Shown: positions 28,736-29,150, numbered from the stretch's first letter. The stretch: 34,141 nucleotides of DNA from Deltaproteobacteria bacterium (GCA_034670305.1 JAXMNT010000069.1:1-34141); one strand, 5' to 3'. The notes: generated by a model from the sequence alone, not told the origin. Program-made: numbers and translations.

Positions 28736-28936
28736 ACTTCGCTTCGCGCAAAGTGCTGTGCACTTTGACGGTCTTCGGCGCTTGACAGCGCTCTCGACCG
28801 TTTGTTGTCCGAGGGGGATGGGCGCATCCCCCTCCGGCCTGCGGGGCACAGCCCCTCCGGCCTCCTCCCCAACTTCGCTTCGCGCAAAGTGCTGTGCACT
28901 TTGACGGTCTTCGGCGCTTGACAGCGCTCTCGACCG
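28736..28936. repeat. Perfect 65-bp direct repeat (28736-28800 and 28872-28936) around a 71-bp hairpin-containing spacer
   Basis: Seen directly. Confidence 0.95.
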
Positions 28937-28945
28937 GGTTAAAAA
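28918..28945 (+). promoter_or_regulatory. Putative sigma70 promoter of the tRNA
   Basis: TTGACA (28918-28923), 16 bp spacer, TAAAAA (28940-28945), 17 bp before the tRNA 5' end. Confidence 0.55.
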
Positions 28946-28962: not shown

Positions 28963-29049
28963 GCGGATGTGGCGGAATTGGCAGACGCGCTGGATTAAGG
29001 ATCCAGTGGGGTAAAACCCGTGGAGGTTCGACTCCTCTCGTCCGCACCA
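28963..29049 (+). tRNA. tRNA-Leu, anticodon AAG
   Basis: Acceptor GCGGATG/CGTCCGC, discriminator A, encoded CCA; D-loop GGAATTGGCAGAC; anticodon arm CTGGA-TTAAGGA-TCCAG; long variable arm GGG-GTAAAA-CCC; T arm GGAGG-TTCGACT-CCTCT. Confidence 0.95.
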
Positions 29050-29064
29050 GATGTACCCAGGGTT

Positions 29065-29094
29065 GAAAAGGGAGCGCACCAGCGCTCCCTTTTC
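29065..29094 (+). terminator. Intrinsic terminator after the tRNA
   Basis: GAAAAGGGAGCGC-ACCA-GCGCTCCCTTTTC followed by TCATTT. Confidence 0.9.
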
Positions 29095-29114
29095 TCATTT
29101 CTCGGCGAAGCCGA

Positions 29115-29150
29115 CCCTTGCCCCTGCCCTTGCCCCTGCCCTTGCCCCTG
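29115..29150. repeat. (CCCTTG CCCCTG)x3 hexamer tract
   Basis: Seen directly. Confidence 0.9.

What the first reader, a model, noticed from the sequence alone, without database searches (positions are those of the whole stretch)
28963..29049. tRNA-Leu with an AAG (A34) anticodon
Seen: the anticodon arm is CTGGA-TTAAGGA-TCCAG (28990-29006), so U33 is 28996, the anticodon is AAG (28997-28999) and position 37 is G, as in CUN-reading Leu tRNAs. The cloverleaf is intact, CCA is encoded, and there is a plausible promoter and a terminator, so it does not look decayed. Established: in most bacteria the only A34 tRNA is Arg(ACG), which TadA edits to inosine; Leu(AAG) is reported mainly from some Firmicutes such as streptococci and other lactic acid bacteria. 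Inference: this myxobacterial lineage may have independently evolved an I34 (or unmodified A34) Leu tRNA and a TadA with wider specificity, possibly replacing tRNA-Leu(GAG) for the abundant CTC codon.
Basis: partly seen in the sequence, partly recalled or inferred. Interest (0 to 1): 0.8.

Follow-up and report, generated by a model that had tools for sequence, protein, structure and literature searches.

The report
Conserved A34 leucine tRNA replacing GAG
This is a real, conserved leucine tRNA gene with the rare anticodon AAG that has taken the place of the usual GAG tRNA in whole clades of GC-rich myxobacteria, most likely after editing of its first anticodon base to inosine as already shown in streptococci.

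Summary
Window 28963-29049 (+) is an intact tRNA-Leu with anticodon AAG (ARAGORN; Rfam 52.8 bits).

It is not an error or a private mutation. An identical gene occurs in another genus, and 24 of the 29 best-hit tRNAs (G000's own among them) carry AAG.

In a 301-genome sample of the phylum, 56 genomes have Leu(AAG). Of these, 54 have no Leu(GAG). The other two, G000 and G012, have GAG only inside a separate tRNA array.

CTC is about 54% of leucine codons here. A complete relative has no Leu(UAG) at all.

All AAG tRNAs examined share the loop YUAAGGA, although their bodies differ. That loop fits the published TadA consensus of Streptococcus pyogenes. One canonical TadA is present.

Inosine editing (I34) is therefore the best reading, at about 0.8, but it is not shown. 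RNA-library contigs were uninformative, and TadA carries no AAG-specific residue.

This is a new member of a known kind. The scan found it before in another Polyangiales genome (e1-2407566). My searches found no paper reporting it outside Bacilli, Mollicutes and Prochlorococcus.

The parts
28918..28923 (+). -35-like hexamer TTGACA upstream of the tRNA
   Evidence: Read from the sequence. TTGACA is kept in 4 of 7 aligned relatives, with TTGACT in a fifth, although the flanks are otherwise diverged. The strict sigma-70 scan reported no full promoter.
28940..28945 (+). weak -10-like hexamer TAAAAA, 16 nt after the -35-like hexamer
   Evidence: Read from the sequence. It fails the scan's rule for the last base, so its role as a promoter element is inferred only.
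28963..29049 (+). tRNA-Leu(AAG) gene, type II with a long variable arm, A73 and an encoded CCA
   Evidence: ARAGORN. Rfam RF00005 at 52.8 bits, full length. A 100% identical copy lies in G016, a different genus.
28990..29006 (+). anticodon arm CTGGA/TTAAGGA/TCCAG, with A34 at 28997, G37 at 29000, A38 at 29001 and an A31-U39 closing pair
   Evidence: Read from the sequence. The same loop YUAAGGA with an A31-U39 pair is seen in 12 of 12 AAG tRNAs from 8 families. G30-A31 is seen in 58 of 58 AAG matches across the phylum.
29065..29104 (+). intrinsic-terminator-like hairpin (13 pairs, 8 of them G-C) with a T-rich tail
   Evidence: scan_promoters_terminators. Comparable hairpins with T runs stand downstream in G004, G012 and G016.

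Best explanation
Most likely the cell's single TadA deaminates A34 to inosine. The resulting anticodon IAG would read CUC (the main leucine codon), CUU and CUA, while tRNA-Leu(CAG) reads CUG. That is the same two-tRNA logic as ICG plus CCG in the arginine box. Shown here: the gene is intact and conserved; GAG is absent where AAG is present; UAG is additionally absent in part of the family; the anticodon arm is held constant while the tRNA body varies; and a canonical TadA is present. Inferred: the deamination itself, and acceptance of A35 by this TadA.
For: (1) The gene is intact.

(2) It is conserved. 24 of the 29 best-hit Leu tRNAs from G000 and 28 relatives are AAG, and one in another genus is 100% identical. 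In the phylum sample, 16 of 17 members of family f1 have it. The 17th, G010, has the AAG arm with a 4-nt gap in the 5' part.

(3) It replaces GAG. In 301 genomes, 56 match AAG and 166 match GAG, and the two sets overlap only in G000 and G012. In both, the GAG sits in a tRNA array and has a different backbone. By family: f17, in the same order, has AAG 0/24 and GAG 23/24; f26 has AAG 25/26 and GAG 0/26.

(4) Three relatives were surveyed for type II tRNAs, and none has a core GAG: G012 in full, G002 and G022 from a list 14 matches short.

(5) G012, a single-contig genome, has no Leu(UAG) among all 79 tRNA matches. Seven of the 10 further family members searched have no UAG match. In those genomes CUA needs I34, or an A34 that reads all four codons.

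(6) CTC is 54.4% of leucine codons, in 2832 heuristically chosen ORFs; genome GC is 68.1%.

(7) The loop YUAAGGA with A38 is found in 12 of 12 AAG tRNAs. A38 is seen in 0 of 7 GAG, 0 of 12 CAG and 4 of 13 UAG tRNAs. Between families, AAG arms are 89% identical while their bodies are 76% identical.

(8) The loop fits the S. pyogenes TadA consensus YUAMGRA (passages of bioRxiv 10.1101/2023.09.19.555891). It differs from this genome's own tRNA-Arg(ACG) loop CUACGGA only at positions 32 and 35.

(9) There is one TadA, matching NF008113 at 167.5 bits (cut-off 150), with the HAE and PCxxC motifs.

(10) The same AAG/GAG exclusion recurs in a 201-genome sample of a second phylum. Of 21 AAG genomes, 20 have no GAG-type match.
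Against: There is no direct RNA evidence. Contigs from three metatranscriptome runs carry the full tRNA with A at position 34 and no listed A-to-G difference. These contigs run on into flanks, may derive from DNA or precursor transcripts, and drop minor variants, so the result neither supports nor excludes editing.

E. coli TadA does not deaminate S. pyogenes tRNA-Leu(AAG) in vitro, so acceptance of A35 cannot be assumed.

TadA here has no C-terminal extension of the S. pyogenes kind. No residue distinguishes TadA of 21 AAG genomes from 19 GAG genomes, and the TadA tree follows families.

G000 itself carries plausible Leu(GAG) and Leu(UAG) genes in a tRNA array (51.0 and 56.7 bits). In this particular genome the AAG tRNA is therefore not strictly required for CUC or CUA.

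The pattern searches depend on a conserved D-arm and could miss divergent GAG tRNAs.
Confidence: 0.8

Rival explanations
1. The tRNA is functional, but A34 stays unmodified. It reads CUU well and the other CUN codons by relaxed four-way wobble, as reported for A34 tRNAs of Mollicutes and organelles.
For: No editing was seen in RNA-library contigs. No TadA change tracks the AAG state. E. coli TadA rejects Leu(AAG). A 2026 preprint reports that unmodified four-fold-box ANN tRNAs are tolerated in E. coli (passages of 10.64898/2026.05.15.725136).
Against: CTC makes up 54% of leucine codons and CTT only 5%, which is a poor match for an A34 reader. The anticodon loop is held to the TadA-type sequence across different tRNA bodies. 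AAG replaces GAG specifically, while UAG is usually kept: 43 of 56 AAG genomes have it. That is the pattern of the edited Lactobacillales case.
Confidence: 0.13
2. In this genome the AAG gene is a minor or redundant tRNA. CUC and CUA are read mainly by the Leu(GAG) and Leu(UAG) genes of the tRNA array on contig C89.
For: The array genes score like real tRNAs, at 51.0 and 56.7 bits. The array lies beside housekeeping genes fusA and rpsG, not in an obvious prophage. G012 and G004 also carry array-type GAG genes.
Against: Most family members have no array-type GAG: 15 of 17, and 9 of 10. They still keep the AAG gene nearly unchanged. The AAG tRNA is 100% identical between two genera while its flanks have diverged, which indicates strong purifying selection.
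Confidence: 0.05
3. The A at position 34 is a sequencing or assembly error, a private mutation, or the gene is decaying.
For: None found. The only damaged copy seen is in G010, a 460-contig assembly, with a 4-nt gap.
Against: The same A34 occurs in 23 other genomes among the best hits, in 55 other genomes of the phylum sample and in 120 of 120 public records fetched. RNA-library contigs from three runs carry the tRNA letter for letter.
Confidence: 0.02

Closest known systems
tRNA-Leu(AAG) edited to tRNA-Leu(IAG) by TadA in Lactobacillales (Oenococcus oeni, Streptococcus pyogenes, S. mutans, S. pneumoniae)
   Same: It is a type II tRNA-Leu with A34 that occurs instead of tRNA-Leu(GAG) at family level, never alongside it in the core genome (paper passages). 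tRNA-Leu(UAG) is usually kept. The anticodon loop fits YUAMGRA. A single homodimer-type TadA is present.
   Different: The host is a 68% GC myxobacterium in which CUC is the main leucine codon. The published cases are AT-rich, and the preprint read says all genera with a fixed ANN tRNA are 60-70% AT. TadA here lacks the C-terminal extension noted for S. pyogenes. Part of the family has also lost tRNA-Leu(UAG). Editing has not been demonstrated here.
tRNA-Arg(ACG) to ICG with TadA, the universal bacterial I34 system
   Same: It has the same proposed enzyme and the same decoding logic: I34 reads the U-, C- and A-ending codons, and a C34 tRNA reads the G-ending codon. The two loops in this genome differ only at positions 32 and 35.
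   Different: Position 35 is A instead of C, and the E. coli enzyme does not accept that. The amino acid and the tRNA class (type II) also differ.
Eukaryotic ADAT2/ADAT3 substrates, including tRNA-Leu(AAG)
   Same: Leu(AAG) replaces Leu(GAG), and I34 covers three codons.
   Different: The eukaryotic enzyme is a heterodimer that needs the whole tRNA and has relaxed sequence specificity (paper passages). Here only a 152-aa bacterial TadA is present.
Unmodified A34 tRNAs of Mollicutes, such as tRNA-Thr(AGU)
   Same: A34 in a four-fold codon box of a bacterium.
   Different: Those occur in reduced, AT-rich genomes, some of which lack TadA (title and abstract of PMC3711424 in the listing). This genome is large and GC-rich and has TadA.

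Membership tests
Bacterial type II tRNA-Leu | Cloverleaf with a long variable arm, G18G19, a T-loop and A73. LeuRS does not read the anticodon (established knowledge, recalled). | tested here: met
   ARAGORN calls Leu. Rfam matches full length at 52.8 bits. A73 and CCA are read.
TadA-edited tRNA-Leu(AAG/IAG) system (Lactobacillales type) | An A34 Leu tRNA gene conserved across a clade | tested here: met
   24 of 29 best-hit tRNAs are AAG. 56 of 301 genomes of the phylum have it, including 16 of 17 in family f1.
TadA-edited tRNA-Leu(AAG/IAG) system (Lactobacillales type) | tRNA-Leu(GAG) absent where AAG is present | tested here: met
   54 of 56 AAG genomes have no GAG match. The two exceptions, G000 and G012, have GAG only in a tRNA array with a different backbone. 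G012 was surveyed in full, and G002 and G022 less fully.
TadA-edited tRNA-Leu(AAG/IAG) system (Lactobacillales type) | A TadA gene is present | tested here: met
   G000:C37:50706-51161 matches PF14437 at 133.6 bits and NF008113 at 167.5 bits with a cut-off of 150. It aligns with PDB TadA chains at E = 1e-40 to 1e-54.
TadA-edited tRNA-Leu(AAG/IAG) system (Lactobacillales type) | The anticodon loop matches the enzyme's consensus (YUAMGRA in S. pyogenes) | tested here: met
   The loop here is UUAAGGA. It is YUAAGGA in 12 of 12 AAG tRNAs. The consensus comes from passages read.
TadA-edited tRNA-Leu(AAG/IAG) system (Lactobacillales type) | A34 is read as G (inosine) in the mature tRNA | tested here: inconclusive
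   Contigs of three metatranscriptome runs show A34 and no listed difference. Contigs cannot show minor or mature-tRNA variants, and no raw reads were available.
TadA-edited tRNA-Leu(AAG/IAG) system (Lactobacillales type) | The cognate TadA deaminates the Leu(AAG) transcript in vitro | not testable with these tools
   This needs recombinant enzyme. The sequence comparison found no AAG-specific TadA residue.

The most novel reading that the evidence does not exclude
Replacement of tRNA-Leu(GAG) by an inosine-bearing tRNA-Leu(AAG) may be a repeatedly evolved, widespread bacterial decoding strategy, not a Firmicutes oddity. It occurs in several clades of Myxococcota and in Verrucomicrobiota, Planctomycetota and Acidimicrobiia, including GC-rich genomes. 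The adaptation would lie on the tRNA side: different Leu tRNA bodies converge on one anticodon arm (an A/U 31-39 pair and the loop YUAAGGA) that an essentially unchanged TadA accepts. In one subclade, which includes this genome, this has gone on to loss of tRNA-Leu(UAG). That leaves a eukaryote-like two-tRNA reading of the CUN box.
Probability: 0.5. Interest if true: 0.65.

Novelty: new member of a known kind. Interest (0 to 1): 0.5.

Why it matters
Wobble inosine outside tRNA-Arg is treated as a eukaryotic hallmark with a few exceptions in AT-rich Firmicutes. One paper I read states that almost all bacterial Leu(AAG) genes lie in Bacilli (PMC13249217). A preprint states that genera with a fixed ANN tRNA are AT-rich.

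Here the same replacement is fixed in GC-rich clades where the I:C pair would read the most used leucine codon. It also recurs in other phyla.

If editing is confirmed, the substrate range of bacterial TadA is wider and older than assumed. Because mRNA editing follows the tRNA loop motif in S. pyogenes, these lineages would be candidates for UAAG-type mRNA editing.

The clades also offer many natural AAG/GAG contrasts for testing how I34 shapes codon usage.

Tried and rejected
RNA evidence. The look-up of sequencing runs listed 13 runs on record as RNA, each holding only a small share of the words. Laying contigs of X1, X2, X4 and X7 gave full-length matches with no differences in three runs and nothing laid for X7. 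No A-to-G row was listed. The contigs run on into unlike flanks and cannot show mature tRNA, so I take nothing from this for or against editing.

TadA co-evolution. I aligned 41 TadA sequences (21 AAG, 19 GAG, 1 with neither). These were chosen by hand from the 232 genomes with a hit, to cover families. No column separates the two states. The best column (G000 position 148) only shifts from L toward I/V. The tree follows families: 8 changes of state, with at least 3 forced by well-supported branches.

Promoter. The strict sigma-70 scan found none.

The ARAGORN call 'tRNA-Leu(gag)' at C28:6434-6528 (95 nt) lies in a tandem repeat and has a poor cloverleaf. I rejected it as a tRNA.

tRNA-Leu(UAG) is not generally lost in AAG genomes: 43 of 56 have it, against 212 of 245 others. 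Loss of UAG is a feature of a subclade only.

Literature. Searches found no paper on Leu(AAG) in Myxococcota, Verrucomicrobia or Planctomycetes. PMC6103674 (Rafels-Ybern 2018) is not held, and supplements of the bioRxiv preprint are closed. Genus-level tables there could list such cases.

Conservation makes an error untenable.

Full report
**1. The observation**

ARAGORN finds exactly one tRNA in the 34,141-base window: tRNA-Leu(aag) at 28963-29049 on the + strand. Rfam's tRNA model matches 28963-29046 from its first to its last position at 52.8 bits, against a gathering score of 29, with E = 1.6e-10.

- The anticodon arm CTGGA/TTAAGGA/TCCAG lies at 28990-29006.
- U33 is at 28996, and the anticodon AAG at 28997-28999.
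- G37 is at 29000 and A38 at 29001.
- A73 and an encoded CCA lie at 29046-29049.

A 13-pair hairpin with a T-rich tail follows at 29065-29094. The strict sigma-70 scan found no promoter. However, a TTGACA at 28918-28923 is kept in 4 of 7 aligned relatives, with TTGACT in a fifth, while the rest of the flanks has diverged. A weak TAAAAA follows it 16 nt later.

**2. Not an error and not private**

I searched 40 relatives with the tRNA and ran ARAGORN on the 30 best loci, one of which is G000's own. 29 loci gave a Leu tRNA; 24 carry AAG and 5 carry CAG.

- The gene in G016, a different genus, is 100% identical over 87 bases.
- G014, G019 and G008 differ at one or two bases, none of them at position 34.
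- The 30th locus (G010) has the AAG arm but a 4-nt gap near positions 6-9, in a 460-contig assembly.

Of the 24 family members searched, 20 have an intact AAG gene. G010 has the gapped copy, G005 gave no match, and G011 and G020 were not inspected.

**3. The tRNA set of this genome**

ARAGORN on the whole assembly (7.93 Mb, 105 contigs, 96% complete) gives 89 calls. The Leu tRNAs that look real fall into two groups.
- Scattered 'core' genes: UAA (C11), CAG (C30), CAA (C43) and AAG (C69, the window).
- Array genes on contig C89: CAA, GAG and UAG.

C89 is a 16.9-kb contig carrying 24 ARAGORN tRNA calls within about 6 kb.

A 95-nt 'Leu(gag)' call on C28 sits in a tandem repeat and is not a tRNA.

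The array tRNAs have a different backbone. Fifteen of them pass Rfam's threshold (one as tRNA-Sec), including GAG at 51.0 bits and UAG at 56.7 bits. The array lies next to fusA, rpsG, a Ser/Thr kinase and a chorismate-binding enzyme. The context is therefore chromosomal, not an obvious prophage.

Outside the array, the CUN box of this genome is served only by AAG and CAG.

**4. Relatives with good assemblies**

I listed the tRNA matches of three family members and inspected every match of 80 nt or more. For G012 the list is complete; for G002 and G022, 14 low-scoring matches were not listed and could hide a further tRNA.
- G012 (one contig, 9.07 Mb) has CAA, UAA twice, AAG and CAG. It also has an array of 38 ARAGORN calls that holds GAG, CAG and CAA.
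- All 79 tRNA matches of G012 were listed, and none is Leu(UAG). One caveat: 36 of the 186 first-look candidates were not scored.
- G002 has UAG, CAA, UAA, AAG and CAG.
- G022 has CAA, AAG, CAG and UAG.
- None of the three has a core GAG.

Ten more family members were searched with a pattern that leaves position 34 open.
- All 10 have AAG.
- None has a core-type GAG, and one (G004) has an array-type GAG.
- Only 3 (G016, G008, G017) have UAG.

A subclade that includes this genome therefore reads CUN with AAG plus CAG alone.

**5. Phylum-wide pattern**

I ran three patterns on the same 301-genome sample of the phylum. Each anchors on the Leu D-arm and differs only at position 34.

| Anticodon | Genomes matched |
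|---|---|
| AAG | 56 |
| GAG | 166 |
| UAG | 255 |

The AAG and GAG sets overlap only in G000 and G012, both through the array-type GAG. So 54 of 56 AAG genomes have no GAG, while 164 of the 245 others have one.

By family:

| Family | AAG | GAG |
|---|---|---|
| f1 | 16/17 | 1/17 |
| f17 (same order) | 0/24 | 23/24 |
| f16 | 0/2 | 2/2 |
| f26 (another class) | 25/26 | 0/26 |
| f19 | 1/5 (G270) | 4/5 (the other four) |

- Families f4, f8, f6, f18 and f21 have AAG in every sampled genome and GAG in none.
- Single AAG genomes sit in f43 (G164) and f48 (G203).
- Two AAG genomes (G159, G287) are in f55.

UAG is present in 43 of 56 AAG genomes and in 212 of 245 others, so it is usually kept.

These genomes are related, so the counts are not independent events. 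The family pattern nevertheless shows several switches.

The searches rely on a conserved D-arm. 81 genomes matched neither AAG nor GAG, which may be real or may be a limit of the pattern.

**6. Codon demand**

The genome is 68.1% GC. I took 2832 long ORFs, chosen by the heuristic GC3 > 0.80 with GC3 > GC1 > GC2, and dropped the first 60 codons of each. Leucine codon shares:

| Codon | Share of Leu codons |
|---|---|
| CTC | 54.4% |
| CTG | 29.7% |
| TTG | 10.2% |
| CTT | 5.3% |
| CTA | 0.44% |
| TTA | 0.05% |

The tRNA that replaced GAG must therefore read the most used leucine codon. An unmodified A34 pairs best with U. Inosine pairs with C, U and A (Crick's wobble rules, as stated in the passages read).

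In the arginine box of the same genome, CGC is 50.5% of codons. It is read by the single tRNA-Arg(ACG) gene, the standard TadA substrate.

**7. The anticodon arm is constrained and the body is not**

I extracted 44 CUN-reading Leu tRNAs from 11 families.

All 12 AAG tRNAs have the loop YUAAGGA (A38) closed by A31-U39. The frequency of A38 by anticodon:

| Anticodon | tRNAs with A38 |
|---|---|
| AAG | 12 of 12 |
| GAG | 0 of 7 |
| CAG | 0 of 12 |
| UAG | 4 of 13 |

All 58 AAG matches in the phylum sample have G30-A31.

Between families, identity of the arm (position 34 excluded) and of the body:

| Anticodon | Arm identity | Body identity |
|---|---|---|
| AAG | 89% | 76% |
| CAG | 80% | 79% |
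| UAG | 73% | 74% |
| GAG | 86% | 81% |

The AAG bodies fall into at least three types, judged by acceptor stem and variable arm.
- One type is CAG-like. In G002 the AAG and CAG bodies are 100% identical outside the arm.
- A second type begins GCGAGG.
- A third begins GGGGTCG and is shared by G164 and G203.

This fits several origins, or repeated gene conversion, with convergence on one arm.

[quoted passage not shown] This genome's own tRNA-Arg(ACG) loop is CUACGGA. The two putative substrates differ only at positions 32 and 35.

**8. TadA**

The genome has one TadA, at G000:C37:50706-51161 (152 aa).
- It matches PF14437 at 133.6 bits.
- It matches NF008113 at 167.5 bits over a cut-off of 150.
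- It aligns end to end with solved TadA chains 7cph, 2b3j, 2nx8 and 1z3a.
- It has the HAE and PCxxC motifs.
- It has no C-terminal extension.

The other two deaminase-fold hits are RibD and a dCMP-deaminase-like protein.

I aligned TadA from 21 AAG genomes, 19 GAG genomes and one genome with neither. These were picked by hand from the 232 genomes with a hit, to cover the families. No column separates the two states. The tree groups sequences by family and needs 8 changes of state, at least 3 of them forced by well-supported branches.

There is thus no sequence sign of a re-specified enzyme. Either TadA of this phylum already tolerates A35 when the rest of the loop is right, or the determinants are too subtle for this test.

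**9. RNA data**

Thirteen of the 17 runs listed are on record as RNA, most of them metatranscriptomic; each holds a small share of the words of the stretch. I laid contigs from four of them.
- X1, X2 and X4 each have contigs that cover the tRNA fully with no differences.
- Nothing was laid for X7.
- No A-to-G difference was listed.

The matching contigs are 369-1635 nt long and continue into flanks unlike the window. They come from relatives that share the tRNA, and they may be DNA carry-over or precursor transcripts. Contigs also drop minor variants. I therefore draw no conclusion on editing or on expression.

**10. Spread beyond the phylum**

All 120 hold a complete tRNA-Leu(AAG) by ARAGORN.

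Of the 80 records whose titles were shown, my count by label is:

| Label | Records |
|---|---|
| Verrucomicrobiota-type (Akkermansia and Akkermansiaceae, Luteolibacter, Roseibacillus, Rubritalea, Opitutales) | 31 |
| Myxococcota or 'delta proteobacterium' | 18 |
| Planctomycetota | 10 |
| Bacillota | 6 |
| Acidimicrobiia | 5 |
| Alphaproteobacteria (Micavibrio) | 4 |
| Ignavibacteria | 1 |
| Coxiellaceae | 1 |
| 'Proteobacteria' | 1 |
| No taxon named | 3 |

The records nearest to this window's tRNA carry Deltaproteobacteria, Polyangiaceae and Sandaracinaceae labels. That is my only basis for calling the host a Polyangiales-type myxobacterium.

Three genomes of other phyla each have AAG and CAG and no GAG. 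In a 201-genome sample of the phylum of G331 (the Rubritalea record), 21 genomes have AAG, and 20 of those have no GAG-type match. 77 genomes have only GAG-type matches. Four of those 21 AAG tRNAs have U31 instead of A31, so the 31-39 pair is A/U rather than strictly A-U.

The pattern fixed the arm. That scan therefore cannot be used to argue that the arm is conserved. can.

**11. What is known**

In the papers I read (passages only), tRNA-Leu(AAG) in bacteria is described from these groups:
- Leuconostocaceae and some other Firmicutes (PMC8007984).
- 'Almost all ... among the class of Bacilli', with a brief note of Mycoplasma and Prochlorococcus (PMC13249217).

Editing to I34 by TadA has been shown in O. 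oeni, S. pyogenes, S. mutans and S. pneumoniae. The preprint states that the genera with a fixed ANN tRNA all have 60-70% AT.

Searches combining Leu/AAG/anticodon with Myxococc-, Verrucomicrobia or Planctomycetes returned nothing relevant. The main text of Diwan and Agashe 2018 does not mention AAG. I could not read Rafels-Ybern et al. 2018 or the supplementary tables.

The scan itself has reported the same thing before:
- In another Polyangiales genome (e1-2407566).
- In Clostridia (e1-2147209).
- In CPR bacteria (e1-864100, e1-690133).

**12. Verdict**

The gene is real, functional-looking and under strong constraint. It is the lineage's replacement for tRNA-Leu(GAG).

The mechanism I consider most likely (about 0.8) is deamination by the ordinary TadA to IAG. 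That would read CUC, CUU and CUA. It would explain the conserved TadA-type loop, the exclusive loss of GAG and the secondary loss of UAG in part of the family.

The main rival, at about 0.13, is an unmodified A34 reading by relaxed wobble.

This is a new member of a known kind. It is of moderate interest because it extends bacterial Leu-I34 decoding to GC-rich lineages and, on the evidence, to several further phyla.

Noticed in passing
G000 contig C89:10166-16297 (not in the window); G012:C1:3450500-3463000 (L163): Large tRNA arrays. C89 has 24 ARAGORN calls, 15 of which pass Rfam, next to fusA, rpsG, a Ser/Thr kinase and a chorismate-binding enzyme. G012 has 38 calls. Their tRNAs have a backbone unlike the core genes, and they hold the only Leu(GAG) of these two genomes.
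   Followed up: partly
G000 contig C89:16204-16294 (L255): The last tRNA of the array scores just over Rfam's tRNA-Sec threshold (RF01852, 48.2 bits against 47). ARAGORN calls it Ser(cga), 93 nt.
   Followed up: no
G000 contig C5:123208-123790: A trio of tRNA-like genes, Met(cat), His(atg) and Lys(ctt), has mismatched acceptor stems and 46-52% GC. It includes a second A34 anticodon, His(ATG). They are probably degenerate or foreign.
   Followed up: no
G000 contig C37:50329-51532; G012:C1:505543-506582: tadA sits inside a tRNA cluster, directly downstream of its substrate gene: Ser(gct), Arg(acg), tadA, Ser(cga), Ser(gga). The order appears the same in G012, where the match in the Arg(acg) slot was not typed.
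   Followed up: partly
window 29106-29150: A short GC-rich tandem repeat (12-nt unit of the form CCCTTGCCCCTG, about three copies) lies just after the tRNA terminator. Read laying also flagged 29110-29150 as a repeat.
   Followed up: no
L179 and L180 (G002): [quoted passage not shown] In G000 the figure is 91%. This suggests that AAG arose from a CAG-type gene, or that the two are homogenised by gene conversion.
   Followed up: partly
G000 contig C28:6434-6528: ARAGORN's 95-nt 'tRNA-Leu(gag)' is a false call inside a GGTTCGGCCTCG-type tandem repeat.
   Followed up: yes
L025 (G010:C216), about 1500-1580 on the minus strand: The AAG tRNA of G010 lacks 4 nt near positions 6-9, so ARAGORN does not call it. 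This is either an assembly error in a 460-contig genome or a decaying copy.
   Followed up: partly
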